This document shows, piece by piece, positions 21 to 55,260 of a stretch of 64,000 nt of DNA (position 1 is its first letter; each line of letters opens with the position of its first letter). Made by a program: the position numbers and the translations under genes. Location of the stretch: positions 1 to 64,000 of IMG/VR virus record IMGVR_UViG_3300042691_047309, one strand, 5' to 3'. Below the pieces are notes generated by a model that was not told the DNA's origin, did not search any database, and saw only the letters and a program-made list of their open reading frames with translations. The DNA comes from a virus.

Positions 21-497
21 ATGAATTTAAAAGAACCATTTGTTATACTTCTTGTTGGTCCAACTTTATCGGGTAAATCTACCTGGATAAGAAATAACTA
101 TCCAAATGTAAATGTTATTTCTAGAGACGAAATAGTTATGGAAGTTGCTGGAACCAGAGATTATAATAAAGCATTTAATACTGTTGATCATAAGTTAGTT
201 GATAAAGTTTTAGCAGAAAGACTCACCGAATCAAACTCCAATAAAACATCGACTATTGTTGATATGACAAATATGACAGTAAAAAGAAGAGAACAAACTT
301 TGAGATATTTTGACGATAGTTTTTACAAAGTTGCTGTTATATTTCCTATACTTTCTGATGATGAATATCAAAAGAGAAACATCGATAGAAATGCAAAAGA
401 GAATAAGTGGATACCACCAACTGTTATTAAATCAATGATTGATTCTTATCAAGAGCCTACTACTGTAGAGGGATTTGATAATATTATTTCTCTATAA
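21..497 (+). CDS. P-loop kinase, AAA_33 / polynucleotide-kinase-like
   Basis: Walker A GPTLSGKS, ISRDEI, IVDMTN, and a lid-like RNxxR, as in T4 Pnk-type kinase domains. Confidence 0.75.
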   Translation: MNLKEPFVILLVGPTLSGKSTWIRNNYPNVNVISRDEIVMEVAGTRDYNKAFNTVDHKLVDKVLAERLTESNSNKTSTIVDMTNMTVKRREQTLRYFDDSFYKVAVIFPILSDDEYQKRNIDRNAKENKWIPPTVIKSMIDSYQEPTTVEGFDNIISL

Positions 498-511
498 AAA
501 ATCCTTAAAAT

Positions 512-543
512 TTTGGTAAAATCGAATATTTATACTATATTTG
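512..543 (+). promoter_or_regulatory. Bacteroidota primary-sigma promoter (-33 TTTG / -7 TAnnTTTG)
   Basis: TTTG 512-515, 20-nt spacer, TATATTTG 536-543, upstream of ORF 564. Confidence 0.75.
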
Positions 544-563
544 TATAAATAATAACGATATAT

Positions 564-920
564 ATGATTTCTACTGAGCACGTAATTGACTTTGACAACT
601 TAGTTCTAACAGATAAAGATGTTTTTGACGATTGGGAATATCTTATTTGCGAGCACGATGGTAGTTATAGTCAAGACTCACAATACCTTTATTTTGATTA
701 TAAAGGATTGGAAGTTGTGATTGGTTTTGAATTGACTATCAGAGGATGGTCTTGGTATAAACCATCATCATATATGGAACCAGAAGATGGTGAAACTAAA
801 ATTACTGATGTTGAGATAGATGTTGATTTCTTCTCAATTGAAGATGAAGAGGTAACCATTGATAAAGACTTGAAAAAGAATTTATTAGAGGTAGTAAAGA
901 AATATGTTAGTTATGAATAA
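564..920 (+). CDS. hypothetical acidic protein
   Basis: ORF behind a host-type promoter; no motif recognised. Confidence 0.6.
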   Translation: MISTEHVIDFDNLVLTDKDVFDDWEYLICEHDGSYSQDSQYLYFDYKGLEVVIGFELTIRGWSWYKPSSYMEPEDGETKITDVEIDVDFFSIEDEEVTIDKDLKKNLLEVVKKYVSYE

Positions 921-1230
921 AGTTTATTTTAACAAAGAAGAAAATTATTGGTTTGTAAATGAACCAGAAGATTTCTATTCCTTTAAATTTGTTAATATTG
1001 AAACTAACAAAGAGTCAAGTCAGATTTTATCATGGACTAGAGGACTTGGATTAGAAGAATATCCACATCATATTAGAATGTATGATGTTGATATTGAGGA
1101 TGTAAAATATTTCTTTCTTATGAGAAAAGAAGAAACATATTATATAATTGAATCTGAAAATCCAATGGAATTGGAAAAACTTATAAATAATCACAACATA
1201 TTTTTTGTAGGTGAAACTATGAATTCTTAG
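904..1230 (+). CDS. hypothetical protein
   Basis: ORF overlapping the upstream gene end; true start may be M4. Confidence 0.55.
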   Translation: MLVMNKVYFNKEENYWFVNEPEDFYSFKFVNIETNKESSQILSWTRGLGLEEYPHHIRMYDVDIEDVKYFFLMRKEETYYIIESENPMELEKLINNHNIFFVGETMNS

Positions 1231-1232
1231 TT

Positions 1233-2176: not shown

Positions 2177-2686
2177 ATGAATTATCTAAAAAAGTTTAAT
2201 GAAGAAGTTGGTTTTGATGATGAGGAAACAAGAGATAGACTTGAAATACCCAATCTTAGAGGAGAATTTGAACCATATAGTCCAACTATGAAACCTTACT
2301 ATGTTCCAAGTGGTAAAATAAATACTTCTACTGAACTTAAAAAAATTCTTTTTAGATATCCTATATTAGAAGATTTTCATAAAGATTCAAAAAGAATAGA
2401 AGGTTCTATTTTAGAATCTTTTTATGCAACAAGTAAAACTCCTGTTAATGGAGAAGATTTTTACGCACAATTATCATTTGCTTTTCATGAAGGTCAGTAC
2501 TATATTGGTACTATTCTCAGAGATAGGTTGGATTGGAATAATGAAGAAAAATGGGTAAAGCATACTTTCTTTTTTGATAAAATAGAAGAGACTTTTTCGG
2601 TTGCAGAATCTTTTTTAAAATGTTGCGATAAACTTGGAATACTAGATTCTGATGATTTATCAAAATTTGACTCACTTTTTAATTAA
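2177..2686 (+). CDS. hypothetical protein with N-terminal capsid-targeting-like tag
   Basis: MNYLKKFNEE start; TTAATATATAG upstream. Confidence 0.65.
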   Translation: MNYLKKFNEEVGFDDEETRDRLEIPNLRGEFEPYSPTMKPYYVPSGKINTSTELKKILFRYPILEDFHKDSKRIEGSILESFYATSKTPVNGEDFYAQLSFAFHEGQYYIGTILRDRLDWNNEEKWVKHTFFFDKIEETFSVAESFLKCCDKLGILDSDDLSKFDSLFN

Positions 2687-2709
2687 TTTTTCATTTTTTT
2701 CTTAAAATA

Positions 2710-2741
2710 TTTGGTGAAATTAAATTCTTGCCTTATCTTTG
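2710..2741 (+). promoter_or_regulatory. Bacteroidota-type promoter for the tRNA-Tyr-like gene
   Basis: TTTG-N20-TATCTTTG. Confidence 0.75.
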
Positions 2742-2754
2742 TATTCACAACGAT

Positions 2755-2842
2755 GGGGAAGTTCCAGAGCGGCAAATGGAGTTACATAGTAATGTGACTG
2801 GTCTCAAAAGATCTTCGGTGGTTCGAGTCCAACCCTTTCCCA
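2755..2842 (+). tRNA. atypical tRNA-Tyr-like gene (8-nt anticodon loop ATAGTAAT, bulged T-stem)
   Basis: Acceptor GGGGAAG/CTTTCCC+A, Tyr-type D arm CCAGAGCGGCAAATGG, long variable arm, TTCGAGT T-loop. Confidence 0.7.
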
Positions 2843-2862
2843 CAAAATAAAATAAAAAAAGA

Positions 2863-2894
2863 TTTGGTAGATTGAAAAAGTTTACTTATCTTTG
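2863..2894 (+). promoter_or_regulatory. Bacteroidota-type promoter for a small structured RNA
   Basis: TTTG-N20-TATCTTTG. Confidence 0.75.
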
Positions 2895-2900
2895 TAAAAC

Positions 2901-2982
2901 AAATCACGGGTGGCTCCCTTAATAGTTAAGGCTGACCTTAAGCATCCACCGAGAGGTATACAGGGGCGAAAGTGATTTTTTT
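2901..2982 (+). ncRNA. unassigned ~80-nt structured RNA, possibly pseudoknotted
   Basis: Closing stem AAATCAC/GTGATTT, hairpins TTAAGG-CTGA-CCTTAA and ACC-GAGA-GGT, crossing pairings GGGTG/CATCC and TCCCT/AGGGG; own promoter and 3' T-run. Confidence 0.6.
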
Positions 2983-3064
2983 AAAATTAGACATTTAAGA
3001 TAGCCTAATCGGAAACAAATCGGAAACGTCTGATATAAGTTAAACAAAAATTTTTACAAAAAGA

Positions 3065-3096
3065 TTTGGTCAAAATAAAAAAAGTTCATATCTTTG
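3065..3096 (+). promoter_or_regulatory. Bacteroidota-type promoter for the tRNA-fMet / large ncRNA operon
   Basis: TTTG-N20-TATCTTTG. Confidence 0.75.
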
Positions 3097-3134
3097 TAAA
3101 ACAAATAAGAAATAAGAAATATAAAAATACACAT

Positions 3135-3207
<73 letters not shown>

Positions 3208-3213
3208 CAAAGA

Positions 3214-3258
3214 GTTCTCAACGGAGAACAACGTTCTTTGACATATTGATCTTTAACA
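3214..3258 (+). promoter_or_regulatory. rRNA-leader-like boxB hairpin plus tandem boxA antitermination sites
   Basis: Hairpin GTTCTC-AACG-GAGAAC, then GTTCTTTGACATATTG and TGATCTTTAACA (one mismatch to E. coli boxA TGCTCTTTAACA). Confidence 0.5.
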
Positions 3259-4090
3259 GTCGGTTTCGACTGACTGTGAAAAGAAGGGCGGCTTATAGTC
3301 CTTAAAATAAACCGTGAAAGCGGGATAAAGTAAATAGAATAGCTAAATCTGTTTGCGTCTTGAATCTTCGGATTTGAGGTCGAGTAAGCAAGTGGGACAC
3401 CACAAAACCTTATTAGTCGAGGGTAACACTGTAGATGAAATGGATTTGTGACCAGGCAATTGTAGTTGTTTGGTTGACCTCGGAAGAGGAATAGGATTAA
3501 CCCATAGGATTGTTGCAAGAAGTAGTGACTCACCGGTTGTTATCATTGCGGAATCCAACTTAATAGGTATCTTAAAGTTGAAAGACAATCATTCGTACAG
3601 GTGGTGCTGTTGTTTGACACTTTTCTCTCTACCAGGGGAGTTATGGTGAAGATATCTTGAAGAGTTGTGGTGGAGGCATCACACGGAGTAGTTCAGTATT
3701 CTTGAGGTCAAAAGCTTTGAGAGCTGAGAGGTAACCACTACTTCGACACAATCTACAAAGCACTAAATTTCACTATTAATGAAACATTTAAAAAGGAAAT
3801 CAAAAGTGTTACCTAGTTACTGATGAAAAGTACCTACTTAGTCGTGAGTGTTCACGGCCACTGAAGCTCGAAAGGCTGATGTGATTTCATCGAAAAGCTT
3901 ATAGAGGGTCGAACCTCGAGTCAGCTCGCAAGGTTGAGTAAGTGGATTAAATGGAGAGTAATTAGTAACTTAAGGAGTGGTTAGTCTAACTAACCGGTAC
4001 TGACAGAGTACTTCTCAAAAGGAAGTGGATAAGAAGGGAAACCATAATCTAACAAAAGTTCTGTCGTAATAAGGTGTAATCTCAACCTTT
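3256..4090 (+). ncRNA. large ornate ncRNA, GOLLD-like
   Basis: ~840 nt, richer in GC than its flanks, no plus-strand ORF, many UUCG/GNRA hairpins (ACAGTCGGT-TTCG-ACTGACTGT, CCGT-GAAA-GCGG, CCTC-GGAA-GAGG), inside a phage tRNA cluster; boundaries approximate. Confidence 0.65.
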
Positions 4091-4093
4091 TCT

Positions 4094-4140
4094 GGTCGGT
4101 TCATAGGAACCTCTGAGAGCGAGACTCAGACCGACCTCAA
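4094..4140 (+). ncRNA. minimal tRNA-like element (acceptor + T arm only)
   Basis: 7-bp GGTCGGT/ACCGACC stacked on 5-bp CTGAG/CTCAG with a 7-nt loop, then N-CAA as in neighbouring tRNAs. Confidence 0.5.
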
Positions 4141-4220
4141 AGTTTTCGTAGTGGTTAACTTCCCTTTAATTAGGGAGTCTGTCATAGACAGGATGGGTAC
4201 TTAACCCCATACTAAATCTT

Positions 4221-4326
4221 GGCCCGTTCGTCTAGAGGACTCTTAAAAGAGATACAGAAACTTTGTGAACGTAGAGGACGCCTAACTTTTCATTAGGAGA
4301 CATGGGTTCGAATCCCATACGGGCTA
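4221..4326 (+). tRNA. tRNA with Glu-type body, ~33-nt D-loop insertion and register-shifted anticodon loop
   Basis: Acceptor GGCCCGT/ACGGGCT, D-stem GTCT/GGAC, anticodon arm CCTAA-CTTTTCA-TTAGG, T arm ATGGG-TTCGAAT-CCCAT. Confidence 0.75.
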
Positions 4327-4383
4327 CTTATTTCTTTTATTTATAATATCAGATATATTCAAAATTTATGTATAATAAAATAT

Positions 4384-4487
4384 GGTCCTTTAGCTCAGTA
4401 GGTTAGAGCAACTGACTCTAAGTGTTATAAGTAAATTAACACAACGTTATAATCAGTAGGTCCACGGTTCGAACCCGTGAAGGACCA
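4384..4487 (+). tRNA. tRNA with Ile-type body and a 30-nt insertion in the anticodon loop
   Basis: Perfect acceptor GGTCCTT/AAGGACC, normal D and T arms, stem ACTGA/TCAGT enclosing 37 nt instead of 7. Confidence 0.85.
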
Positions 4488-4488
4488 C

Positions 4489-4519
4489 AAATCCATCAAA
4501 AAATTTGGTGGGTTTTTTT
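4489..4519 (+). terminator. intrinsic terminator of the RNA cluster, overlapping the next promoter
   Basis: ATCCATCAAA/TTTGGTGGGT stem plus T-run; TTTG-N20-TATATTTG at 4504-4535. Confidence 0.6.
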
Positions 4520-4540
4520 ATTTTTATTATATTTGTTATT

Positions 4541-4804
4541 ATGAATATTTTCACAAAAGCTGAACTAACTAGAGTATTATCAATAAAAGTAAAGGAAGAT
4601 GAGATAAAAAACTTTTGCCTGACCGATACTTATTTACATATTCAAAAATCAAAGAGGACTAGTTTTACTTTTAAATTATCTGATATATCTGATAAGATTT
4701 TGATAAAAGTTATTCGTAAAAAAACACCAAATCCTTCTGTTCAAAATATAAAAGATTTTTACAAGTCGGAAATTAGAAATTCAAAAATTTTAGAAATACT
4801 ATAA
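4541..4804 (+). CDS. hypothetical protein with C-terminal RxxK[IL]xx[IL] tag
   Basis: Start moved to ATG 4541 after the promoter; ends IRNSKILEIL. Confidence 0.65.
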   Translation: MNIFTKAELTRVLSIKVKEDEIKNFCLTDTYLHIQKSKRTSFTFKLSDISDKILIKVIRKKTPNPSVQNIKDFYKSEIRNSKILEIL

Positions 4805-5145
4805 TGAGTCCAGAAAGAGTACTATATCACATAGATAACCAAGTTTTGGATAAAATTAATTTAGGCCAAAGATGGGATGATATAATTGAATATTTAACTT
4901 CAAATGTAAAAAGATATAAAAAGAGAGACGCTTATATTCAGGTAAGTGAAAAATATCTTATAAATAACTGGGAAAGGATAGAGTGGAAAAAAAGAATGAC
5001 AACAATGCTTGTTATACAATCTATGAGAAGAATTTCAGATATAAAATGGATAAGCGAAAATCATAACAAATTTCCAAGATATAGTTCCCATAAAATGTAT
5101 AAATTAGTATCATTAAAGGATAAATTAAAGGCTAATATATGTTAG
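4804..5145 (+). CDS. hypothetical protein
   Basis: TAATG-coupled ORF. Confidence 0.6.
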   Translation: MSPERVLYHIDNQVLDKINLGQRWDDIIEYLTSNVKRYKKRDAYIQVSEKYLINNWERIEWKKRMTTMLVIQSMRRISDIKWISENHNKFPRYSSHKMYKLVSLKDKLKANIC

Positions 5146-10338: not shown

Positions 10339-11259
10339 ATGAATAAAGATTCTAAAATTTTTATTGCAGGTCACAATGGAATGGTTGGCTCTGCTTTAGT
10401 AAGAAAACTAAAAGACTTAGGTTATACAAACCTTCTACTTAAAACAAGAAAAGAGTTGGATTTGACTAATCAATTTCAAGTCAATCAATTTTTTCATTTC
10501 GAAAAACCAGAATATGTTTTTTTAGCAGCTGCTAGAGTTGGCGGAATAAAAGCAAATGACCAATTTAGAGCTGAGTTTATTTATCAAAATTTGATGATTC
10601 AGTCTAATATAATTAAGGCTTCTTATGATAATAAAGTCAAAAAACTATTATTTTTAGGCTCTTCTTGTATTTATCCTAAAATGTGTCCTCAACCAATCAA
10701 AGAAGAATACTTATTGACTGGTCCTTTAGAAACATCTAATGATGCCTATGCGGTTGCTAAAATTGCAGGAATCAAAATGTGCCAAGATTTTAATAAACAA
10801 TTTGGAACTAATTATATTTCTGTTATGCCAACTAATCTTTTTGGCCCGAATGATAATTACGACTTAAATAATTCTCACGTACTTCCTGCTTTAATTAGAA
10901 AGTTTCACGAGGCTAAGATAAATTGTAGTGATTTAGTTGAAATCTGGGGAACAGGTTCTCCGATGAGAGAATTTCTTTATGTAGATGATTTGGCAGATGC
11001 ATGTCACTATTTGATGTTAAATCATAACGGTTCTGACATTGTAAATGTTGGTACTGGAAAAGATATAACTATCAAAGATTTAGCATACACCATAAAAGAA
11101 GTAGTTGGATTTGAAGGTGATATCTACTTTAATACTGAAATGCCAGACGGTACCCCAAGAAAGCTTTTAGATGTAACAAAACTAAAAGAAATAGGTTGGG
11201 AATATAAAACTTCTTTAAGAGAGGGAATCAAAAAAACTTATTTAGATTATGTCAAATAA
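10339..11259 (+). CDS. fcl: GDP-L-fucose synthase
   Basis: AGHNGMVGSA, LAAARVGGI, LGSSCIYP, YAVAK, SHVLPALIRKF, WGTGSPMREF. Confidence 0.95.
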   Translation: MNKDSKIFIAGHNGMVGSALVRKLKDLGYTNLLLKTRKELDLTNQFQVNQFFHFEKPEYVFLAAARVGGIKANDQFRAEFIYQNLMIQSNIIKASYDNKVKKLLFLGSSCIYPKMCPQPIKEEYLLTGPLETSNDAYAVAKIAGIKMCQDFNKQFGTNYISVMPTNLFGPNDNYDLNNSHVLPALIRKFHEAKINCSDLVEIWGTGSPMREFLYVDDLADACHYLMLNHNGSDIVNVGTGKDITIKDLAYTIKEVVGFEGDIYFNTEMPDGTPRKLLDVTKLKEIGWEYKTSLREGIKKTYLDYVK

Positions 11260-12292
11260 AATTGCACTTATATCCGGTATAACCGGGATGGATGGCTCAC
11301 ATTTAGCTGAGTTACTTTTAGAGAAAGAATATGAAGTCCATGGTATTATTAGAAGAACATCTACTTTCAATACTGATAGAATAGACCATATTTTTGATAA
11401 ATTAAAACTACATTATGGTGATGTTACAGATCCATTAGTTATTTCAAATTTAGTTTCAAAAATTCAACCAGATGAAGTTTACAATTTAGCTGCTCAATCT
11501 CATGTTAAAGTGAGCTTTGAGATTCCTTACTATACGGCACAAGTTGATGGACTTGGAACTTTAGCAATACTTGAGGCTGTAAAAAATCATTGTCCTAAAG
11601 CTAAAGTTTATCAAGCTTCTACATCTGAACTATATGGTGGAATGGATTATAATATGCCTTCCACTGGATATACCGAAACATCTCAAATGCATCCAAGAAG
11701 TCCTTACGGGGTTGCTAAACTATATGGTTTATGGATTACAAAAAATTATAGAGAGTCTTATGGCATGCACATAAGTAATGGAATACTTTTCAATCATGAA
11801 GGTGAGCGTAGAGGTGAAACTTTTGTTACTAGAAAAATAACAATGGCTCTTGCTAAAATTAAAAAATCAATCGATAATGGTGATGATTTTCAAACACTAA
11901 AATTAGGTAATTTGTATTCTAAAAGAGATTGGGGTTATGCTAAAGATTATGTTGAAGGAATGTGGTTAATGTTACAACAAGAAAATCCTGATGATTATGT
12001 ATTAGCCACTGGTGAAACACATACTGTTAAAGAATTTGTTGAACTCTCTTGTAAAGAATGTGGATGGAACATAAACTGGGTTGGAGATGGAATTGATGAA
12101 AGGGGAATATTAGATAACGGAATTACTATTGTTGAAATAGATGACAGATATTATAGACCAGCAGAAGTTGATACTCTGTTAGGTGATCCTACCAAAGCTA
12201 AAGAAGTTTTAGGATGGGAACCAAAAATTAAATTCGAACAATTAGTAAAATTGATGATAACAAGTGATTTAAAAAATATTAATTCAATATGA
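11249..12292 (+). CDS. gmd: GDP-mannose 4,6-dehydratase
   Basis: GITGMDGS, NLAAQSHVKVSF, QASTSELYG, PRSPYGVAK, FVTRKIT, RDWGYA. Confidence 0.95.
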   Translation: MSNKIALISGITGMDGSHLAELLLEKEYEVHGIIRRTSTFNTDRIDHIFDKLKLHYGDVTDPLVISNLVSKIQPDEVYNLAAQSHVKVSFEIPYYTAQVDGLGTLAILEAVKNHCPKAKVYQASTSELYGGMDYNMPSTGYTETSQMHPRSPYGVAKLYGLWITKNYRESYGMHISNGILFNHEGERRGETFVTRKITMALAKIKKSIDNGDDFQTLKLGNLYSKRDWGYAKDYVEGMWLMLQQENPDDYVLATGETHTVKEFVELSCKECGWNINWVGDGIDERGILDNGITIVEIDDRYYRPAEVDTLLGDPTKAKEVLGWEPKIKFEQLVKLMITSDLKNINSI

Positions 12293-12993
12293 TACATATA
12301 CTATGGTGTACTTTACGCCCACAACAGTTTAAACAAATGCACTCTGAATGGATATCTAGATCGGATAAACCCGAAGATATACAAACTTATGTTGCTGTAA
12401 ATTGGCAAGAACATGCAACTGAATTAAAAGAATATCTTTCTAAAAACTATTTGATTACTCTTAACACTAACAAAATTGGAGTTTGTTATCCATCTTATCA
12501 ACTATCATCAAGCTTAGGTGTCAAAATGGGCAAGTGTGAAGATAGTGACATTGTAATTTTCGCCTCTGATGATTTTATGGCACCTAAAGGATGGGACACA
12601 TACCTAAAAAATAAACTTGGAGGTAAAGGAGATGTAGGTCTTATGGTAAGAGATGGATATCAACTACCAGACTCTTCTAATATGTTACATGCTGCTATTA
12701 CAATTCCGATTATGACTTACGGTTGTCTTAAAAAATTGAATATGACAATTTATCACCCAGCTTATAATCATATGTTTTCTGATTGTGAATTATATAACAA
12801 TTTAAAAGAATTAGACTTACTATATGATGATAGACTAAATGACGAAACAGTCTTTGAACATTTACATTACGCAGCTGGTAAAAGACAAGCAGACGGAGCT
12901 GATCAGGCTTATAATTCAAAGTGGCAAGAAGATGATATAACCTGGAATAAAAGAAAAATCATGCCAGTGGAAAAAAGATTAGAAGTAGCTTAA
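12289..12993 (+). CDS. putative GT-A fold glycosyltransferase
   Basis: FASDDF acidic motif, YNHMFSD, EHLH; glycan-island context. Confidence 0.65.
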   Translation: MIHILWCTLRPQQFKQMHSEWISRSDKPEDIQTYVAVNWQEHATELKEYLSKNYLITLNTNKIGVCYPSYQLSSSLGVKMGKCEDSDIVIFASDDFMAPKGWDTYLKNKLGGKGDVGLMVRDGYQLPDSSNMLHAAITIPIMTYGCLKKLNMTIYHPAYNHMFSDCELYNNLKELDLLYDDRLNDETVFEHLHYAAGKRQADGADQAYNSKWQEDDITWNKRKIMPVEKRLEVA

Positions 12994-32805: not shown

Positions 32806-33641
32806 TACATTTTCAATAATATTTTTAAAGTATAATCATATATCGGTCTTGAAGTGTCAAAATATCTTTCATCCCTTGAAAAGGGCCAAAGAACTTCTTC
32901 ATAGTCTAATTCTGCTGTAATCAAGTCAATTCTATCATCTAATTCTTTTTCTAAGTCTAATAAACTCATTTGACCTGTTCTGTGAGAATCTACCGATGAC
33001 CAACCACCAATGTCAATTACCACACCTGGTTGATACATACTAAGAACATTTTCAGGAGAATATAATTTTAATTTTCTCATCTCATATTCTTTAAGTTCAG
33101 TAAATTCTGAGAAGTCAAAATTCTGACATTGCCACTTTTTATCTGTAACAAATTCAGATTCTGGTGCTGTTCTAAAATTGACTTCAGTATCTATCAATCT
33201 TGAACAAGATACCGTTGGTCTTACAATTTCAAAAATTATATTATGTAAAATATAACTTTTTCTTTTCATATCATCTGATTCAAAAATAGGCATAGTTCCA
33301 TTATACTTAAGCTCGTTAATATCATTTACTCTATCATAATCTCCATAAAGAACGGCACAATAAATATTCTTTTCTTTTTCATCAGGTAGAGTGTCATAGA
33401 TTTCAAGCATCGCATCTTTTATATGATTCAAATCAACTTCTGAAAGTATTTGAAACATTCTATCAACATGAGACTTTATTTTCTGCCACCAACCATCTCC
33501 TACAAAATGGTCAGTCCATCTTTCTAATTGTGATATATCATTATTTGACCAGTGATTATTTCTAAGATAATCATAGAAATCAAAAATAGAATATTCTTTT
33601 TGAGACTCTAAAAAAGATTTATATGTTTCTAATTTTTTCAT
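32805..33641 (-). CDS. N-tagged hypothetical protein
   Basis: MKKLETYKSFLES. Confidence 0.7.
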   Translation of the reverse strand: MKKLETYKSFLESQKEYSIFDFYDYLRNNHWSNNDISQLERWTDHFVGDGWWQKIKSHVDRMFQILSEVDLNHIKDAMLEIYDTLPDEKEKNIYCAVLYGDYDRVNDINELKYNGTMPIFESDDMKRKSYILHNIIFEIVRPTVSCSRLIDTEVNFRTAPESEFVTDKKWQCQNFDFSEFTELKEYEMRKLKLYSPENVLSMYQPGVVIDIGGWSSVDSHRTGQMSLLDLEKELDDRIDLITAELDYEEVLWPFSRDERYFDTSRPIYDYTLKILLKM

Positions 33642-35344
33642 CTTAAAGTTTTTATTCTTTCTACTTGATATTTCATTATATCAACATCTTGATTTTGTTT
33701 AAGTAAATCAATTATCTTTTGATACATTTGTATTGTTATCCTACAGTCTGTAATGGCGTCGTGATAACCCATCATATTAACTCCTAAGACCGGTCCTATT
33801 TTAGCCATTGATGATGATATAAGTCCGTTATCTCTTGTAGATGTTCCTATAAAATCAATCATTTCTTTATATTTAGTATCTGTTTCAGCTAATGTTTGTA
33901 ATAGAGGTAAGAAATATAACTGAATCAACATTTTAGTATCAAATACTTCGCTTTCAATTTTGTGACCGTATCTTCCACTTAGCATTGCCATATCAAAACT
34001 CGCATTTTGAGCAACTAATATATTTGGTGAGTAATTACTAACCCATCTGAAAAAGTCATCTACTATATCTTTTTCATTTTTATATTTATAATCACCTGAT
34101 CCATAGTGATTAAACCCCAATACCCACTTAGTTTTATCCTCAGGTTGTAGAAACTTTGATTTAGTTTCATCTGTTAATTTTATCTTTTCATCAAATGTTC
34201 CTATTTCACTAAAATTGTTTGATTTGAAATCATACTGAGTTGCTATTGCAGATACTTGAGTTAATTGTTGTTGTTTTGGACCACCTAACCCAGTCGTTTC
34301 GGTGTCGCACCAGATAAACGGCAGTGTGGATTTAGATTCTAACCACTCTAATATTTCTGGTATAGTTTTATACCACATTTTATTTTCATTCAATCCTTCC
34401 TCTACCTTATCAAAATGTATATAAACTTGCTCAGATATCGTTCCTTCATTAAGTGTTTTAATTTTTGTTGAAAATCCTTCAGATTCTAAATAACTTATAG
34501 TTGCCTCAACAACAGGACTTATTTCATTCCAAAACTCATCGTGAGTTAGTCTTCTTTGATTTTTAATCCAAACATAAGGACCATGTAACCAATAGTGTTT
34601 TTTATCTTTCGGTCTTATTAAGTCAATAAATGAATTAAGTTTGGAAGGTGACTCTGTGAATCCACTGATATGTGGTCTGTATCCTAAATCTTCTAATTCT
34701 AAAAGAATATTTCTTAAATAAGATTCCAATTCCAATCTAATTGGACTAGTTGGTAGTTTCCACTCAGAGTCATATTCTATACCTTCATGTTTAATTGATT
34801 CATTTGTTTTATAGTCAAATTTAACTTTTTCACCCGATGGCATTGAGTAAGTAATCTTATCAACATTTTTTACTTCATATTTATAACCAGGATTGACATA
34901 CTTTTTACCTGTTCCCTTTTTAACATAAGCAATTGTTATGTGTGGTTTGTAATCAGGATACTGATCTGAATTAGGAAACTTAGAAAGCTCATCGTGTAAG
35001 TATTGTAAAGCACCATCCGGTTTTACATTAAACTTAACAACATCAAACTTCTCATTCTCAAAGATATCTATACCATCTACTACTATGTTTATATTGTCTG
35101 TAAAGTTATCAAATACAGATTTTACCATATCTGGAGTTACCGTATCATGAAGACCATAGAGTAAAGTAAGGTGTGGGTTATTTTGAATTCCGTATGTTGA
35201 ATCTCCTTCTTCTTCATAAATATCTTCCTCATCAATAGATGATGTTATCTCATTCCAGTTACTAACTGGGATTTCGACCATAACACATCCATATTGATAG
35301 CCTGATGACTCCTTAATAAATTGTATGTAGTTTTTGATTTTCAT
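33638..35344 (-). CDS. N-tagged multidomain protein: 2H phosphoesterase + family domain + DEDDh exonuclease
   Basis: MKIKNYIQFIKES; HLTL and HITI; DTETTG, QNASFD, HDAITD; junctions KTNES and LNEN. Confidence 0.8.
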   Translation of the reverse strand: MKIKNYIQFIKESSGYQYGCVMVEIPVSNWNEITSSIDEEDIYEEEGDSTYGIQNNPHLTLLYGLHDTVTPDMVKSVFDNFTDNINIVVDGIDIFENEKFDVVKFNVKPDGALQYLHDELSKFPNSDQYPDYKPHITIAYVKKGTGKKYVNPGYKYEVKNVDKITYSMPSGEKVKFDYKTNESIKHEGIEYDSEWKLPTSPIRLELESYLRNILLELEDLGYRPHISGFTESPSKLNSFIDLIRPKDKKHYWLHGPYVWIKNQRRLTHDEFWNEISPVVEATISYLESEGFSTKIKTLNEGTISEQVYIHFDKVEEGLNENKMWYKTIPEILEWLESKSTLPFIWCDTETTGLGGPKQQQLTQVSAIATQYDFKSNNFSEIGTFDEKIKLTDETKSKFLQPEDKTKWVLGFNHYGSGDYKYKNEKDIVDDFFRWVSNYSPNILVAQNASFDMAMLSGRYGHKIESEVFDTKMLIQLYFLPLLQTLAETDTKYKEMIDFIGTSTRDNGLISSSMAKIGPVLGVNMMGYHDAITDCRITIQMYQKIIDLLKQNQDVDIMKYQVERIKTLR

Positions 35345-51313: not shown

Positions 51314-51904
51314 TTACATTTCACCGAATCTTTTGATTCTAAAAATAGATCCGATGTTATTTAATTTAGCCTTTATCTCATTTAAGAGCAAAAGGTGTGT
51401 TCTGTTAAATTGTCTATGTTTCTCAATATCATCAACTATTCTCCAAGTTTCTTCAAAGTATTTGTTTCTGAATCTTTCATTGGCTGTAAAAGCATCTGAT
51501 ATGTTTTGTAGTCTATCTGCTAATTTGATAATAAGAGCATCATCAGACATTTCTATCATTTTATCTGACAAGTAAGCCGCTTTATCATTTTGATAAACCT
51601 TTTCTATTTCTTCTTTTGAAGAAGTTAATTCAGCAACTAATCCACCAACTCTACTTCCAAAAATCTCAGAGATTTCATGTAAGCCTACTTCTAAGTCGTC
51701 GTAACAATCTTCTGCAACATCATGTAAGATGGATGCACAAAGAATATCTTCATCTGTTGTATGTTGTTTAACAATAGCATTTACTTTTTTAACATGTGCA
51801 TCAAAATAAGGAAGTCCGATAAATCTCCTTACTTGTCCTTTATGTGCTGATTTGGCAAACTTCCAAGCCTCGGTTTCTTTTCTTGTTATTGGTCTATTTG
51901 GCAT
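51314..51904 (-). CDS. HD-domain (p)ppGpp hydrolase-like (Mesh1/SpoT-type small alarmone hydrolase)
   Basis: AHKGQVR, PY..H, LHDVAED, IKLADRLQN. Confidence 0.8.
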   Translation of the reverse strand: MPNRPITRKETEAWKFAKSAHKGQVRRFIGLPYFDAHVKKVNAIVKQHTTDEDILCASILHDVAEDCYDDLEVGLHEISEIFGSRVGGLVAELTSSKEEIEKVYQNDKAAYLSDKMIEMSDDALIIKLADRLQNISDAFTANERFRNKYFEETWRIVDDIEKHRQFNRTHLLLLNEIKAKLNNIGSIFRIKRFGEM

Positions 51905-52613: not shown

Positions 52614-53038
52614 TGTATCTTTACATAGGTGATAAAAATTACTGGTTAGACTTTGGATGTTTTCCTGAGAAAATATCTCGCCTAAAAAAATTGAATCAAA
52701 TTAAATTTAAAATAAATTTATATGATTATGACAACGTGAAATCAACGTCTGCTGGATCTCAAATTGAATTTGCTAATAAATTTACTTTTTTAAAATCATT
52801 AAAAACACTTCCCCAAACAATTTATGCTTCAAAAAGCGACCACTACTGGTGGTCATTTGATGGATGTCAACTTTTAGATAAAAAGATATATCAAGATAAA
52901 GACTACTATGATTATGATGGTAGAGATATAAAAAAATGGAATATTGAATTAACAATATCTTATAAAGATGTGTATGGTTCTAATAAAAAACAAGTCTTAG
53001 AAAGAGATATAAAATTAAAGAAACTATTTAATGAGTAA
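52613..53038 (+). CDS. hypothetical protein with C-terminal tag
   Basis: Ends ERDIKLKKLFNE. Confidence 0.65.
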   Translation: MYLYIGDKNYWLDFGCFPEKISRLKKLNQIKFKINLYDYDNVKSTSAGSQIEFANKFTFLKSLKTLPQTIYASKSDHYWWSFDGCQLLDKKIYQDKDYYDYDGRDIKKWNIELTISYKDVYGSNKKQVLERDIKLKKLFNE

Positions 53039-53279
53039 TATATCAAATAGAGTTTCAGAAACTAGACTTTTCAAAGAAAGAAGGAGTTTAGGAATTGAAT
53101 TTTGCTGGGAAACAGCAACTGAAGCTGTATTTTCCAGACCAGAAGATGATTTAGATATATTAGGTGAATATTACTTAATTGAATCTTTTTCAACCGGTGT
53201 TATTTCAGTCACTGACATAAAAGGAAATGTCTTAGATAAAACTGATAGAATCTTAAATTTATTTAGACTTGGTGTTTGA
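53031..53279 (+). CDS. hypothetical protein
   Basis: Coupled ORF. Confidence 0.55.
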   Translation: MSNISNRVSETRLFKERRSLGIEFCWETATEAVFSRPEDDLDILGEYYLIESFSTGVISVTDIKGNVLDKTDRILNLFRLGV

Positions 53280-53693
53280 TTTTTCCGATTTATAGCTCTC
53301 AATAACTCTCATTCTTAATTCAGTTGTAGAAAATGAATGTTTTCTTGAGTTATAATACATTTCAATATGTTCTAACTCTTTTCCTGTAAAATCTTTATCC
53401 TTATACTCTTCTCCTACAACTCTTATATTTATTGGATATGAATGTAGAATATCTAATAAATCTTTTTCAGTTGCATAGACTACAACCTCATCTACATATT
53501 TACAAGCTTCTAATTGAATAAACCTTTCAACAACAGATTGAATTGGTTTGTTTTTTTCAGGTCTATCAATAGTAGGGTCAGTTTGTAATCCTACAATTAG
53601 ATAATCACAAACCGACTTTGATTCCTTTAACATCATAATATGACCTGCATGAAATAGGTCAAAACATGAGCAAGTAAATCCTACTTTTTTCAT
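53259..53693 (-). CDS. TagD-like cytidylyltransferase
   Basis: FDLFHAGH (HxGH), VGEEY, RKHSFSTT. Confidence 0.85.
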   Translation of the reverse strand: MKKVGFTCSCFDLFHAGHIMMLKESKSVCDYLIVGLQTDPTIDRPEKNKPIQSVVERFIQLEACKYVDEVVVYATEKDLLDILHSYPINIRVVGEEYKDKDFTGKELEHIEMYYNSRKHSFSTTELRMRVIESYKSEKSNTKSK

Positions 53694-53881
53694 AGTGACT
53701 TTTTAATTTGTTTTGGTAGTTGTTCATTTGATAACTCAAATTCTCTAATACCACTTCTAGTATTACTCACCATTAAAAATTTAAAATTGAAACTATCATT
53801 AGTTTTTGTTCTAACATGATAGTATTCGTCAATTGATCCACTTGTGTGAATTGTTCCTAAATGTTTTTTATCTGTATTCAT
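53690..53881 (-). CDS. small hypothetical protein
   Basis: ATGA-coupled to the cytidylyltransferase gene. Confidence 0.5.
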   Translation of the reverse strand: MNTDKKHLGTIHTSGSIDEYYHVRTKTNDSFNFKFLMVSNTRSGIREFELSNEQLPKQIKKSL

Positions 53882-53940
53882 ATCTTTTTTATGATAATTT
53901 TTACAAAAGTTTTCACTATATTTGCAGAATATATAACTCT

Positions 53941-55260
53941 ATGAAGTTATTCAGATATATGGAATTTATAAAAGAAAGCGTTACTCAATACTCTATACCT
54001 TCTTATGAAGAGGCGGTTGAGATGTGCTCTAAACCAGATGCTGCTTTTTATGAATCAAAAACTGAAGTTGATGGTTTTCCAATAAGCATCTTCAATTATA
54101 GACTTGCTCAATTTAGTGATTTTAATCTACCATTGGAGAATAAACCAGAAGTTAAAGCTTTTGAAATGAGAGGTCTTACTTTTGTTTTTAATAAAGATGG
54201 TTCTCTTTATAAAAGATTTGTGCTACTTGAAAAGTTCTTTAACTTGAATCAAGTTCCTAATTCTATGTATTCTGTTGTTAAAGATTACAAAATTCGTTAT
54301 GTTAATAACAAAGAAGATGGTTCTATTGCTTCATTTATTCAATTACCAAATGGAAAGATTATAGGTCGTTCTAAAATGGGGTTTGATAATGACCAAGCAA
54401 ATGGTATAAACAAAATCTATAAAACAAATGCGGATATAAATCAATTTGTTAATTGGTGTTTATCACAAGACATAACTCCGATATTCGAGTATGTCGCGCC
54501 CCACAACCGTGTAGTTTTAAGATACTCACAAGAAGAGCTGATACTTTTAAGACTAAGAGATAACAAGACCGGAAAACATATCGATATCAAAGACCATTTA
54601 GATAAAATTGGTTCAATTAAGATTGCACCTTTTGAGGATGACCACACTTTGGATGACCTAATTGAAAAGTCAAAAACTGAAGCAGAGAGAGAAGGATGGA
54701 TTGTTCAGTTTGATAATGATCACATGCTTAAAATCAAAACTGATTGGTATTGCCAAAGACACGGACTTTTAACAAATGACATTTATAGAGAACATATTAT
54801 TATAGGATATATCTTAGATGATAAGATTGATGATATTTTAGGTCAAATTCCTGAGGATGAAAAAGAAGCACACGAAAGAATACAAAAGATAATTTCAATT
54901 GTTAAAAGAGAAATTAACAATTTAGTTTCACAGATGAATTCTGCTTACTCGGAATTTGTTAAGTCAGGTGCTGATAAAAGAGATTATGCTATTAATCATA
55001 GAGTTGGAAATCCTAACTTTCATTTTGTTATGAGTATGGATAAATATGATAAATTAAAATCTATGTCTAAAGAAGATATATTAGAGTATTATGATTCAGT
55101 TGAAGCTTGGGAAAAGGCAATTGAAAAATATCAACCTTATAACTTAGCTGTTGAGACAATAAGAGATAAAACTAAGAGATTGGAAATAGCCAGAGAATGG
55201 TTAGAATCAAAAGATCCTGGATTATTTTTTAGAGATCCAGAAGAGTCAGAGGAGAATTAA
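53941..55260 (+). CDS. T4 Rnl1-like RNA ligase with N-terminal tag
   Basis: Start moved to MKLFRYMEFIKES; EMRGL, KFFN, motif I KEDGS, FEY, EGWIV, KIK. Confidence 0.85.
   Translation: MKLFRYMEFIKESVTQYSIPSYEEAVEMCSKPDAAFYESKTEVDGFPISIFNYRLAQFSDFNLPLENKPEVKAFEMRGLTFVFNKDGSLYKRFVLLEKFFNLNQVPNSMYSVVKDYKIRYVNNKEDGSIASFIQLPNGKIIGRSKMGFDNDQANGINKIYKTNADINQFVNWCLSQDITPIFEYVAPHNRVVLRYSQEELILLRLRDNKTGKHIDIKDHLDKIGSIKIAPFEDDHTLDDLIEKSKTEAEREGWIVQFDNDHMLKIKTDWYCQRHGLLTNDIYREHIIIGYILDDKIDDILGQIPEDEKEAHERIQKIISIVKREINNLVSQMNSAYSEFVKSGADKRDYAINHRVGNPNFHFVMSMDKYDKLKSMSKEDILEYYDSVEAWEKAIEKYQPYNLAVETIRDKTKRLEIAREWLESKDPGLFFRDPEESEEN

What the first reader, a model, noticed from the sequence alone, without database searches (positions are those of the whole stretch)
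21..55260. Separately encoded kinase + 2H phosphoesterase + Rnl1 ligase: a possible tRNA heal-and-seal (Trl1-like) pathway
Seen: a Pnk-like kinase (21-497), a 2H domain (N-terminus of 33638-35344) and an Rnl1-like ligase (53941-55260); the last two carry the N-tag. Known: fungal Trl1 combines ligase, kinase and 2H cyclic phosphodiesterase to join tRNA halves, and T4 Pnk/Rnl1 repair PrrC-cut tRNA. Inference: the set could splice the interrupted tRNAs at 4221 and 4384, or repair host tRNA, possibly straight after injection. Caveat: phage 2H proteins such as Acb1 can instead degrade cyclic-nucleotide immune signals.
Basis: partly seen in the sequence, partly recalled or inferred. Interest (0 to 1): 0.7.

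Follow-up and report, generated by a model that had tools for sequence, protein, structure and literature searches.

The report
Dispersed tRNA-repair enzyme set, huge phage
A fragment of a very large uncultured phage encodes a T4-type RNA ligase, a polynucleotide-kinase-type kinase and a cyclic-phosphodiesterase/exonuclease fusion that most likely mend broken tRNA. This kind of toolkit is already described for jumbo phages; the unusual part is that the ligase and the fusion carry a leader like the tag T4 uses to load proteins into its head.

Summary
**Observation: confirmed.** All three genes are real and their catalytic motifs are intact.
- 21-497 is a complete 158-aa Pnk-type kinase.
- 33638-35344(-) is a 2H phosphoesterase, a middle module and an RNase T-like DEDDh exonuclease.
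- 53941-55260 is a T4 RnlA-family ligase.
- The last two carry a portable T4-CTS-like leader. Both interrupted tRNAs exist.

**Interpretation: partly supported.**
- Kinase plus ligase is a credible heal-and-seal pair. Two cultured phages have the same two families as an overlapping operon. More distant kinase relatives are fused to HD or Pnkp-type HAD healing domains.
- The 735-kb relative has RtcB, only a truncated ligase, and neither the kinase nor a 2H gene.
- "Trl1-like" is not supported. The ligase is T4-type, and no Tpt1 was found here or in four complete relatives.
- The 2H subfamily cannot be resolved between a LigT-type RNA cyclic phosphodiesterase and Acb1.
- A likelier healing partner, a cREC gene, lies just upstream of the kinase in relatives, beyond this contig's end.
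- Splicing of the tRNA inserts stays speculative: no splicing endonuclease, bulge-helix-bulge motif or ribozyme was found.

Jumbo-phage RNA-repair sets of this composition are already described (PMC7824862). Unchecked notes from this scan report leader-tagged repair enzymes in other phages. Nothing here was tested biochemically.

The parts
21..497 (+). Standalone 158-aa Pnk-type P-loop kinase (probable 5'-OH polynucleotide kinase); no N-terminal leader
   Evidence: AAA_33 1.3e-18 and PHROG 505 5e-14. TIGR04075 Pnkp kinase domain 1.5e-9. C. thermocellum Pnkp kinase structure 4gp6, E 1e-3. G13, G18, K19, D36, R90, R119 and R123 are invariant in 25 diverse relatives.
3135..3208 (+). tRNA-Met(CAU), first gene of the RNA cluster downstream of the kinase
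   Evidence: ARAGORN and Rfam, 66.2 bits. The order kinase, tRNA-Met, GOLLD, tRNA-Glu-like is kept in LR745206; LR756502 keeps kinase, GOLLD and the tRNA-Glu-like genes.
3684..4088 (+). GOLLD RNA (context, not part of the enzyme set)
   Evidence: Rfam RF02032, 291 bits, E 1.4e-83. Also present after the kinase in two relatives.
4221..4327 (+). tRNA-Glu(UUC)-like gene with a roughly 33-nt two-hairpin insert in the D-loop (about 4242-4274)
   Evidence: Sequence and fold. A near-identical insert occurs in three close relatives while the T-arm shows compensatory changes. Inserts of 17-43 nt sit at the same site in LR745206, LR756502 and a 611-kb contig.
4384..4488 (+). tRNA with a 30-nt insert in the anticodon loop. 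The anticodon reads CUA if the insert is 4421-4450, or UAU if it is 4418-4447
   Evidence: Rfam tRNA 61.8 bits with a 32-nt gap; ARAGORN with introns allowed. The gene at this position in a close relative is an uninterrupted tRNA(CAU).
35309..35344 (-). N-terminal leader of the 2H-exonuclease protein (aa 1-12, ends FIKE|S)
   Evidence: Conserved on nearly all of the 120 listed homologues, and re-attached to the exonuclease half where the gene is split. Model pLDDT is below 50 for aa 1-15.
34808..35296 (-). 2H phosphoesterase domain (aa about 17-179)
   Evidence: Two invariant HxT motifs. 2H fold with Z 9.5-13.1 to 19 solved 2H structures. Profile against PDB: LigT-like PH0099 1.1e-5, Acb1 0.019.
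34388..34795 (-). Middle alpha/beta module (aa about 184-319) of unknown function, bounded by TNE|S and LNE|N linkers
   Evidence: Absent from the ~438-aa homologues and present in the exonuclease-only forms. Low-confidence linkers at aa 180-183 and 315-322.
33641..34384 (-). DEDDh 3'-5' exonuclease domain, RNase T-like
   Evidence: Pfam RNase_T 4e-7. Invariant D347/E349, D451, H528/D533. Foldseek top matches are E. coli RNase T, E 4e-7, TM about 0.6.
51314..51904 (-). Small alarmone-hydrolase-type HD protein, syntenic with Rnl1 in LR745206 (context)
   Evidence: Pfam HD_4 4.8e-16. PDB matches are Mesh1 and SpoT/Rel hydrolase domains, about 2e-11. It does not resemble the HD domain of an HD-kinase fusion.
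53259..53693 (-). Cytidylyltransferase-like (NMNAT-fold) gene, divergent from Rnl1. In relatives its near-identical orthologue overlaps the start of a cREC gene
   Evidence: Pfam CTP_transf_like 1.2e-15. Gene tables and translations of L030 and L031.
53941..55260 (+). T4 RnlA-family RNA ligase 1 with a 12-aa N-terminal leader (53941-53976) and an acidic C-terminal tail
   Evidence: T4 Rnl1 structures 1.9e-27, with KEDG, EGW and KIKTDWY aligned to the T4 motifs. TIGR02308 4.7e-43 covering positions 4-353 of 373. The leader is present in LR745206 and LR756502 orthologues and absent in LR756504 and LR756501.

Best explanation
The three genes belong to a dispersed, T4-style (not Trl1-style) RNA/tRNA end-repair toolkit of a huge phage.

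**Proposed steps**
- A host nuclease cuts tRNA and leaves 2',3'-cyclic-phosphate and 5'-OH ends (inferred).
- The 158-aa Pnk-type kinase phosphorylates the 5'-OH (inferred from family, motifs and gene neighbourhood).
- A phosphoesterase opens or removes the cyclic phosphate. Candidates are the 2H domain and, in relatives, the cREC protein encoded just upstream of the kinase (inferred).
- The T4 RnlA-type ligase seals 3'-OH to 5'-phosphate (family membership is shown; the substrate is inferred).

**Delivery**
- The ligase, the 2H/RNase T-like protein and a CCA-adding enzyme elsewhere on the contig start with a portable T4-CTS-like leader.
- They are probably made late, loaded into the head, trimmed after Glu and delivered with the DNA.
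- The kinase is untagged, so it would act only after it is expressed.
- The 2H-exonuclease may be a polyprotein cut at two further hydrophobic-x-Glu linkers.
For: **Domains and catalytic residues are intact**.

**Kinase**
- The best curated hits are the Pnkp kinase domain (1.5e-9) and PSTK. The best solved relative is the Pnkp kinase 4gp6.
- Relatives below 50% identity include HD+kinase fusions, the architecture of the characterised Runella HD-Pnk end-healing enzyme (PMC6097658), and a kinase+HAD_PNKP fusion.

**Gene linkage elsewhere**
- RcXuper has an Rnl1-family ligase (PF09511, 1.7e-23) overlapping a 165-aa homologue of this kinase. RpAliso is annotated with the same pair.

**Distribution among complete relatives**
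- LR745206, LR756502 and LR756504 have full-length Rnl1, the kinase and 2H, and no RtcB.
- LR756501 has RtcB (7.6e-55), a ligase truncated to 270 aa, no kinase and no 2H.
- cREC_REC is in all four relatives. It lies 2.5-5.5 kb upstream of the kinase in five loci.

**Other context**
- The kinase lies 2.6-4 kb from a conserved tRNA/GOLLD cluster.
- A leader-tagged CCA-adding enzyme is at contig positions 120709-121881.
- The leader matches the published T4 capsid-targeting sequence MKTYQEFIAE (PMC8442874). It is portable and predicted disordered.
- PMC7824862 describes this toolkit in jumbo phages: Rnl1/Rnl2 with polynucleotide kinase, 2H, cRec or HAD enzymes and a CCA-adding enzyme.
Against: - The three genes are not clustered in this window and lie on different strands.
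- The kinase lacks the leader that the ligase and the 2H-exonuclease carry, so the set cannot act as one injected unit.
- A 2H enzyme usually leaves a 2'- or 3'-phosphate, which a T4-type ligase should not accept (knowledge of the families). No Pnkp-type phosphatase is conserved: there is only a weak 21.7-bit HAD on this contig and none in three relatives. No Tpt1 was found.
- The 2H domain has Acb1-like features: Pfam Acb1 24.9 bits, a PDYKPHITIAY motif, and the highest identity in the structural alignment.
- The 2H and exonuclease halves are separate, distant genes in LR756502.
- One more distant kinase homologue sits next to DHFR rather than repair genes.
- The complementary distribution rests on only five related genomes.
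- No enzyme activity or virion content has been tested.
Confidence: 0.5

Rival explanations
1. The 2H-DEDDh protein is not part of any RNA-repair pathway. It is a virion-delivered anti-signalling enzyme: an Acb1-like 2H domain opens cyclic oligonucleotide immune signals and the exonuclease degrades the linear products. The kinase and Rnl1 work without it.
For: - Pfam Acb1 scores 24.9 bits against a cut-off of 27.
- Most homologues carry a precomputed PF23474 (Acb1) hit.
- The second HxT motif sits in a PDYKPHITIAY context almost identical to that of phage FBB1 Acb1, 7t26.
- Acb1 has the highest sequence identity, 22%, among structural matches.
- The leader suggests action before phage gene expression.
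- In relatives cREC lies next to the kinase and could be the real healing phosphoesterase.
Against: - The profile search favours archaeal LigT-like PH0099 (1.1e-5) over Acb1 (0.019).
- TIGR02258, RNA 2',3'-cyclic phosphodiesterase, scores 2.8e-6.
- The Acb1 model is below its own threshold.
- Fold scores do not separate Usb1, AKAP18, LigT, CPDase and Acb1 (Z 11-13).
- 2H genes are present in the genomes that have Rnl1 plus the kinase and absent from the RtcB genome.
- A DEDD exonuclease needs a 3'-OH, which Acb1-type cleavage does not leave (knowledge of the families).
Confidence: 0.25
2. The enzymes splice the phage's own interrupted tRNAs. An unidentified endonuclease cuts out the 30-33-nt inserts, and the kinase, a phosphoesterase and Rnl1 rejoin the halves.
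For: - Both inserts are real.
- The anticodon-loop insert must be removed for the tRNA to decode.
- The two inserts share a CUCUWAA start and an AACGU near the 3' end.
- The kinase lies 3.7-3.9 kb upstream in conserved synteny.
- Among the complete relatives whose tRNA regions were examined (LR745206, LR756502 and LR756501), each genome with interrupted tRNAs has one of the two known splicing-ligase routes: Rnl1 plus kinase, or RtcB in LR756501. LR756504 was not checked for interrupted tRNAs.
Against: - No tRNA splicing endonuclease scores above threshold in the contig or in four complete relatives.
- The folds show no bulge-helix-bulge.
- No Rfam ribozyme matches the inserts at E up to 1.
- D-loop inserts at the same site vary from 17 to 43 nt and form hairpins with compensatory changes. 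Position 20 of the D-loop faces solvent, so they may be retained expansions.
- The ligase and the kinase differ in tagging.
Confidence: 0.1
3. There is no shared pathway. The kinase acts on a nucleotide or other small molecule, the Rnl1 homologue serves mainly in tail-fibre attachment as T4 gp63 does, and the 2H-exonuclease works on DNA near the gp32-like gene.
For: - The genes are dispersed.
- AAA_33 is a broad kinase family, and one homologue lies next to DHFR.
- PHROG 562 is named for both ligase and tail-fibre attachment functions.
- PHROG 192 and PHROG 17, DNA polymerase exonuclease families, match the DEDD domain.
- A gp32-like gene lies 1.7 kb away.
Against: - Ligase-kinase operons exist in cultured phages.
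- Fused relatives of the kinase carry end-healing domains.
- All ligase catalytic motifs are conserved.
- The set is replaced by RtcB in LR756501.
Confidence: 0.15

Closest known systems
Phage T4 Pnkp (pseT) plus RNA ligase 1 (rnlA, gp63): tRNA healing and sealing against the PrrC anticodon nuclease
   Same: - The ligase belongs to the same family. Motif I KEDG, motif IV EG and motif V KIKxDWY align with the T4 motifs, and the match runs into the C-terminal domain.
- The kinase shares the Pnk-type P-loop, Asp base and RNxxR lid.
- The phage carries its own tRNAs.
   Different: - The kinase is a standalone 158-aa protein with no HAD 3'-phosphatase domain.
- Candidate cyclic-phosphate enzymes are a 2H domain and, in relatives, cREC.
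- The ligase has a CTS-like leader and an acidic tail that T4 Rnl1 lacks.
- The genes are 54 kb apart.
Jumbo-phage RNA-repair toolkits described by comparative genomics (Iyer et al. 2021, PMC7824862)
   Same: The component list matches: Rnl1/Rnl2 ligases with polynucleotide kinases; 2H, cRec or HAD phosphoesterases to clear cyclic ends; a CCA-adding enzyme; and many phage tRNAs.
   Different: None of the passages read for that paper mention a capsid-targeting-like leader on these enzymes or the 2H-DEDDh fusion. The genomes here are 0.6-0.74-Mb uncultured phages.
Fungal/plant Trl1 tRNA ligase (ligase + kinase + 2H CPDase) with Tpt1
   Same: The same three enzyme classes are present, and PF09511 covers both T4 Rnl1 and the Trl1 ligase domain.
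   Different: - The three activities are on separate proteins.
- The ligase matches only T4 Rnl1 among solved structures.
- No Tpt1 is present.
- The kinase resembles Pnkp and HD-Pnk kinases.
- The 2H domain cannot be assigned to the CPDase subfamily.
Acb1 (T4 gp57B), the anti-CBASS 2H phosphodiesterase
   Same: It has the 2H fold and two HxT motifs. The second motif context is almost identical to Acb1 of phage FBB1.
   Different: - The match is below the Pfam Acb1 threshold, and the first half of the domain is closer to LigT.
- The domain is fused to a middle module and a DEDDh exonuclease.
- It carries a leader.
T4 capsid-targeting sequence on internal proteins IPI-III, removed by the gp21 prohead protease
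   Same: - It is a 10-13-residue N-terminal leader with an aromatic residue and a hydrophobic-x-Glu end. One protein on this contig starts MKIKKTYQEFIKES, against T4 MKTYQEFIAE.
- The leader is portable between unrelated proteins.
   Different: - It sits on enzymes (ligase, 2H-exonuclease, CCA-adding enzyme) rather than small basic internal proteins.
- Only weak, sub-threshold S77 protease matches occur in the relatives.
- Packaging and cleavage have not been shown.
Runella slithyformis HD-Pnk end-healing enzyme
   Same: Relatives of the window's kinase at about 40% identity have the same N-terminal HD plus C-terminal P-loop kinase layout (PMC6097658).
   Different: - The window's kinase has no HD domain.
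- The HD protein near Rnl1 is an alarmone-hydrolase type.
- Orthology of the fused relatives to the Runella enzyme was not tested.

Membership tests
T4 RnlA-family RNA ligase 1 (PF09511 / TIGR02308) | Nucleotidyltransferase motif I lysine in KxDG | tested here: met
   NKEDGS aligns with T4 TKEDGS (Lys99).
T4 RnlA-family RNA ligase 1 (PF09511 / TIGR02308) | Motifs IV (EG) and V (KxKxDWY) and the Rnl1-specific FExVAP segment | tested here: met
   EGWIV, KIKTDWY and FEYVAPHNRVV align with T4 EGYVA, KIKSDWY and FEFVAPTNRIV.
T4 RnlA-family RNA ligase 1 (PF09511 / TIGR02308) | Score above the curated family cut-off | tested here: inconclusive
   Pfam 74.1 bits passes its 28.3-bit cut-off. The TIGR02308 equivalog scores 147.7 bits against 242.25, so this is a divergent member.
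T4 RnlA-family RNA ligase 1 (PF09511 / TIGR02308) | C-terminal domain that gives tRNA specificity in T4 Rnl1 | tested here: inconclusive
   The model match runs to position 353 of 373, but identity there is low. The LR756501 orthologue lacks this domain.
T4 RnlA-family RNA ligase 1 (PF09511 / TIGR02308) | ATP-dependent sealing of 3'-OH/5'-phosphate RNA ends | not testable with these tools
   Needs an enzyme assay.
Pnk-type 5'-OH polynucleotide kinase (T4 Pnkp / bacterial Pnkp / HD-Pnk kinase domain) | P-loop GxxxxGK(S/T) | tested here: met
   GPTLSGKST is present. G13, G18 and K19 are invariant.
Pnk-type 5'-OH polynucleotide kinase (T4 Pnkp / bacterial Pnkp / HD-Pnk kinase domain) | Catalytic Asp after the second strand, and the RxxxR lid | tested here: met
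   D36, R119 and R123 are invariant and align with D38, R116 and R120 of C. thermocellum Pnkp.
Pnk-type 5'-OH polynucleotide kinase (T4 Pnkp / bacterial Pnkp / HD-Pnk kinase domain) | Arg three residues after the catalytic Asp (T4 R38, C. thermocellum R41) | tested here: not met
   The aligned position is Met/Val. A conserved Arg precedes the Asp instead (SRD).
Pnk-type 5'-OH polynucleotide kinase (T4 Pnkp / bacterial Pnkp / HD-Pnk kinase domain) | Association with end-healing or sealing partners | tested here: met
   Relatives are fused to HD or HAD_PNKP domains. Cultured phages have an overlapping Rnl1-kinase gene pair.
Pnk-type 5'-OH polynucleotide kinase (T4 Pnkp / bacterial Pnkp / HD-Pnk kinase domain) | Phosphorylation of 5'-OH RNA | not testable with these tools
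   Needs an enzyme assay.
2H phosphoesterase superfamily | Two Hx(T/S) motifs on the 2H fold | tested here: met
   H58xT60 and H135xT137 are invariant. Z is 9.5-13.1 to 19 solved 2H structures.
Acb1 (PF23474) | Score above the Pfam gathering threshold | tested here: not met
   24.9 bits against 27. The profile scores E 0.019 against 7t26.
LigT/ThpR RNA 2',3'-cyclic phosphodiesterase (TIGR02258) | Score above the curated cut-off | tested here: not met
   27.3 bits against 65.7. PH0099 is nevertheless the best PDB profile hit, 1.1e-5.
Trl1-type tRNA splicing pathway | Tpt1/KptA to remove the junction 2'-phosphate | tested here: not met
   PF01885 is absent from the contig and from four complete relatives. 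A host enzyme cannot be excluded.
Trl1-type tRNA splicing pathway | Ligase that requires a 2'-phosphate | not testable with these tools
   By sequence the ligase matches only T4 Rnl1 among solved structures.
Trl1-type tRNA splicing pathway | tRNA splicing endonuclease and bulge-helix-bulge introns | tested here: not met
   PF01974 has no match above its cut-off. The folds show no bulge-helix-bulge.
DEDDh exonuclease (RNase T / DnaQ type) | ExoI DxE, ExoII D and ExoIII HxxxxD motifs | tested here: met
   D347/E349, D451 and H528/D533 are invariant. RNase T is the top fold match.
T4-type capsid-targeting sequence cargo | Short N-terminal leader ending in hydrophobic-x-Glu that is portable between unrelated proteins | tested here: met
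   The T4 sequence is given in PMC8442874.
T4-type capsid-targeting sequence cargo | gp21-type (S77) prohead protease in the genome | tested here: inconclusive
   Only sub-threshold matches (20-25 bits) in the four relatives, and none on this partial contig.
T4-type capsid-targeting sequence cargo | Presence of the processed protein in virions | not testable with these tools
   Needs virion proteomics.

The most novel reading that the evidence does not exclude
**Reading 1: a ready-made tRNA repair kit in the virion.** The phage would load a true Rnl1 ligase, a 2H/RNase T-like polyprotein and a CCA-adding enzyme into its head through a T4-like address tag. It would inject them with the DNA, so tRNA damage is reversed before any phage gene is expressed.

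**Reading 2: protein-catalysed tRNA splicing.** The same heal-and-seal enzymes would also rejoin phage tRNAs after removal of a new class of 30-33-nt inserts. That would be protein-catalysed tRNA splicing in a bacterial virus.

The probability given is for reading 2. Reading 1 alone is about 0.35.
Probability: 0.1. Interest if true: 0.85.

Novelty: new variant of a known kind. Interest (0 to 1): 0.5.

Why it matters
tRNA cleavage is a widespread bacterial anti-phage strategy. T4 Pnkp/Rnl1 is the only phage counter-measure worked out biochemically (from my own knowledge of the field).

- **Different healing chemistry.** This locus pairs a bona fide Rnl1 with a kinase that has no phosphatase domain, and with 2H and/or cREC as candidate healing enzymes.
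- **Possible virion delivery.** Part of the kit carries a head-loading-type leader. If those proteins are injected, repair would start before phage transcription, and huge capsids would act as carriers of enzyme cargo.
- **A testable prediction.** Among relatives the set alternates with RtcB, which can be checked across large phage genomes.
- **Open side question.** The interrupted tRNAs beside GOLLD RNA raise a separate question about RNA processing in these phages.

Tried and rejected
- **tRNA splicing endonuclease (PF01974).** Only sub-threshold fragments, some containing stop codons, in two relatives.
- **Tpt1 (PF01885).** None found.
- **RtcB.** None in the contig or in LR745206, LR756502 and LR756504; present only in LR756501.
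- **Pnkp-type HAD phosphatase (PF25109).** Only a 21.7-bit match to a 121-aa HAD beside a PRPP synthetase gene. It also matches a PHROG named phosphoheptose isomerase, so it is ambiguous.
- **Ribozymes.** An Rfam scan at E up to 1 over 2600-4900 found none in the tRNA inserts.
- **Pre-tRNA folds.** No bulge-helix-bulge.
- **2H subfamily.** Foldseek and VIA-align on a separate 2H-domain model (pLDDT 84.9) could not separate Usb1, AKAP18, LigT, CPDase and Acb1.
- **Kinase neighbourhoods.** Three more distant homologues were uninformative: one sits next to DHFR and two are on very short contigs.
- **Tagged 444-aa P-loop protein (contig 146011-147345).** It was considered as a packaged kinase. It has only weak Pnk-like matches (PHROG 505 2.6e-5, no PDB relative), so it is left open.
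- **HD protein near Rnl1.** It was considered as an HD-Pnk-type phosphoesterase. It is an alarmone-hydrolase type and is unrelated to the HD domain of an HD-kinase fusion.
- **P-loop gene upstream of Rnl1 in LR745206.** It is an adenylate kinase by its motifs.
- **Alternative genetic code.** Rejected, because the contig is 92% covered by ORFs under the standard code.
- **Longer ligase ORF from TTG 53833.** Rejected in favour of ATG 53941, because orthologues conserve the leader from that Met.
- **BCSR5 phosphodiesterase.** A literature search for this phage 2H structure found nothing.

Full report
**What the window is.** The window is the first 64 kb of a 175,894-bp IMG/VR viral contig. It is AT-rich (28.8% G+C) and reads in the standard code, with 92% ORF coverage. 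The nearest public genomes are uncultured phages of 635-735 kb: LR745206, LR756502, LR756504 and LR756501/3. From memory, these are the huge phages of Al-Shayeb et al. 2020; I did not check this.

**The kinase (21-497).**
- Pfam AAA_33 scores 1.3e-18 and PHROG 505 'polynucleotide kinase' 5e-14.
- The ORF is open to the contig end, but the gene is whole. The 120 closest of 793 homologues are 150-163 aa, nearly all 158, and three complete relatives have 166-167-aa open frames.
- Its best curated matches are the kinase domain of bacterial Pnkp (TIGR04075, 1.5e-9) and L-seryl-tRNA(Sec) kinase (1.2e-6). The best solved relative is the Clostridium thermocellum Pnkp kinase (4gp6, E 1e-3).
- In 25 relatives down to 30% identity, the P-loop, the Asp of SRD and the two Arg of RNxxR are invariant. 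The Arg three residues after the Asp in T4 and C. thermocellum Pnkp is not conserved.
- An exhaustive search gave 2,793 relatives, mostly standalone proteins of 155-180 aa. A subset is fused to an N-terminal HD domain, which is the layout of the characterised Runella HD-Pnk end-healing enzyme (PMC6097658). One is fused to a C-terminal HAD_PNKP phosphatase, as in T4 Pnkp.
- Rhodobacter phage RcXuper has an Rnl1-family ligase (PF09511, 1.7e-23; E 2e-22 to the window's ligase) whose stop overlaps the start of a 165-aa homologue of this kinase. Ruegeria phage RpAliso is annotated with the same pair. This is evidence from other phages that the two families work together.

**The ligase (53941-55260).**
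- It matches T4 Rnl1 structures at 1.9e-27. Motif I KEDG, motif IV EG and motif V KIKxDWY are aligned.
- TIGR02308 scores 4.7e-43 over positions 4-353 of 373, below the equivalog cut-off, so this is a divergent member.
- No Trl1 ligase structure appears among the matches.
- Compared with T4 Rnl1 it has about 15 extra N-terminal residues, the leader, and an acidic C-terminal tail.
- Orthologues in LR745206 and LR756502 keep the leader. Those in LR756504 and LR756501 start directly at the catalytic domain. The LR756501 copy ends after motif V.

**The 2H-exonuclease (33638-35344, minus strand).**
- The 2H domain has two invariant HxT motifs and a clear 2H fold. Its separate model has pLDDT 84.9, with Z 9.5-13.1 to 19 solved 2H structures.
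- The subfamily is unresolved.
  - A profile of 24 homologues hits the LigT-like PH0099 at 1.1e-5, Acb1 at 0.019 and YjcG at 0.044.
  - Pfam Acb1 is just below threshold.
  - Fold scores do not separate the families.
- The C-terminal domain is a complete DEDDh exonuclease whose best structural matches are RNase T.
- The fusion is widespread, with 182 homologues. Forms of about 438 aa lack the middle module and forms of 550-570 aa have it. In LR756502 the two halves are separate, distant genes.
- In split forms the exonuclease half carries its own copy of the leader.
- The full-length model (pLDDT 81.7) has three low-confidence stretches: aa 1-15, 180-183 and 315-322. Each coincides with a hydrophobic-x-Glu motif (FIKE|S, TNE|S, LNE|N). 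This fits a polyprotein cut by a head protease, but it remains an inference.

**The leader.**
- The two proteins start MKIKNYIQFIKES and MKLFRYMEFIKES.
- Another protein on the contig starts MKIKKTYQEFIKES. The published T4 capsid-targeting sequence is MKTYQEFIAE (PMC8442874).
- A permissive pattern finds about 19 such starts among 227 ORFs. One belongs to a CCA-adding enzyme at contig 120709-121881.
- The kinase is untagged.
- The four complete relatives have only weak S77 (T4 gp21-type) protease matches.

**Other pathway parts.**
- No Tpt1 was found, and no tRNA splicing endonuclease scores above threshold.
- A cREC_REC gene is in all four relatives. PMC7824862 predicts this domain to clear 2',3'-cyclic ends and reports its linkage to RNA ligases.
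- That gene lies 2.5-5.5 kb upstream of the kinase in five loci. Our contig begins at the kinase, so its copy would lie beyond the contig's 5' end.
- LR756501 has RtcB (7.6e-55), a truncated Rnl1 and neither the kinase nor 2H. The three other relatives have full-length Rnl1, the kinase and 2H, and no RtcB. This is what a kinase/2H dependence of the ATP-dependent ligase predicts, but it rests on five related genomes.

**The interrupted tRNAs.**
- Both are real. They lie beside a GOLLD RNA (E 1.4e-83), in an order conserved after the kinase in LR745206 and LR756502.
- The tRNA-Glu-like genes carry D-loop inserts of 17-43 nt at one site. Each forms a conserved first hairpin and a variable second one. 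LR756502 also has an uninterrupted copy.
- The anticodon-loop insert can be read to leave either CUA or UAU. The gene at that position in a close relative is an uninterrupted tRNA(CAU).
- There is no bulge-helix-bulge and no ribozyme match. Splicing by these enzymes is possible but has no direct support.

**Comparison with what is known.**
- PMC7824862 already describes jumbo-phage RNA-repair sets of this composition.
- Notes from this scan report leader-tagged repair enzymes in other phages, and the same 2H-DEDDh fusion read as Acb1-like. I treat these notes as leads only, not as evidence.

**Verdict.**
- The heal-and-seal idea is supported for the kinase plus ligase. It is undecided for the 2H domain. 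It is not supported as Trl1-like, and it is speculative for tRNA splicing.
- What is new is the address-tag-like leader on a true Rnl1 and on the 2H-exonuclease, and the apparent polyprotein design.

Noticed in passing
window 3684-4088 (+): A GOLLD RNA (Rfam RF02032, 291 bits) lies between tRNA-Met and the tRNA-Glu-like gene. The same arrangement follows the kinase in LR745206 and LR756502.
   Followed up: partly
window 4384-4488 (+): The interrupted tRNA reads as an amber suppressor (CUA) or as tRNA-Ile(UAU), depending on where the 30-nt insert ends. The contig itself uses the standard code.
   Followed up: partly
G000 contig 120709-121881 (+), locus L020:4709-5881: A CCA-adding/poly(A)-polymerase-type nucleotidyltransferase (PolyA_pol 3.6e-30; PRK13299 2e-42). 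Earlier scan note e1-5684961 reports the same kind of N-terminal leader (MKIKRYRQFLE) for it; I did not print its N-terminus myself.
   Followed up: partly
G000 contig 146011-147345 (-), locus L021:12011-13345: A leader-tagged 444-aa protein with a P-loop (GAPGIGKS) and only weak Pnk-like matches. Its C-terminal half has no recognisable family.
   Followed up: partly
G000 contig 158136-158501 (+), locus L022:6136-6501: A 121-aa HAD phosphatase with a DIDGT motif directly after a PRPP-synthetase-like gene. It has weak matches to Pnkp-type phosphatase models and a stronger one to a PHROG named phosphoheptose isomerase.
   Followed up: partly
window 51314-51904 (-): A small alarmone-hydrolase-type HD protein (Mesh1/SpoT-like), syntenic with Rnl1 in LR745206. 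From my own knowledge, such hydrolases can also remove pyrophosphate that toxic RelA/SpoT homologues add to tRNA 3' ends.
   Followed up: partly
window 53259-53693 (-); L030:34-872: An NMNAT-fold cytidylyltransferase-like gene lies divergently next to Rnl1 here. In relatives its near-identical orthologue overlaps the start of the cREC gene upstream of the kinase.
   Followed up: partly
window, 9 sites including 1233, 2163, 36668, 59397 and 59829: TTAATATATA occurs 9 times, against 1.5 expected. It usually lies 5-7 nt before a start codon. One site heads the minus-strand gene run that contains the 2H-exonuclease, and a near-match lies 6 nt before the Rnl1 start.
   Followed up: partly
window 55221-55260 and orthologues in L002, L003: The leader-bearing Rnl1 proteins end in a conserved acidic tail (LFFxDPEExEE...). 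The untagged orthologues lack it.
   Followed up: no
L027 (LR756501 202001-216000): The 735-kb relative has tRNA genes of 112 and 119 nt with long inserts, in a cluster about 7 kb from its truncated Rnl1.
   Followed up: partly
window 10339-26682 (+): About 20 consecutive same-strand ORFs of 190-365 aa, often with overlapping stops and starts. They look like a paralogue array; I did not examine them.
   Followed up: no
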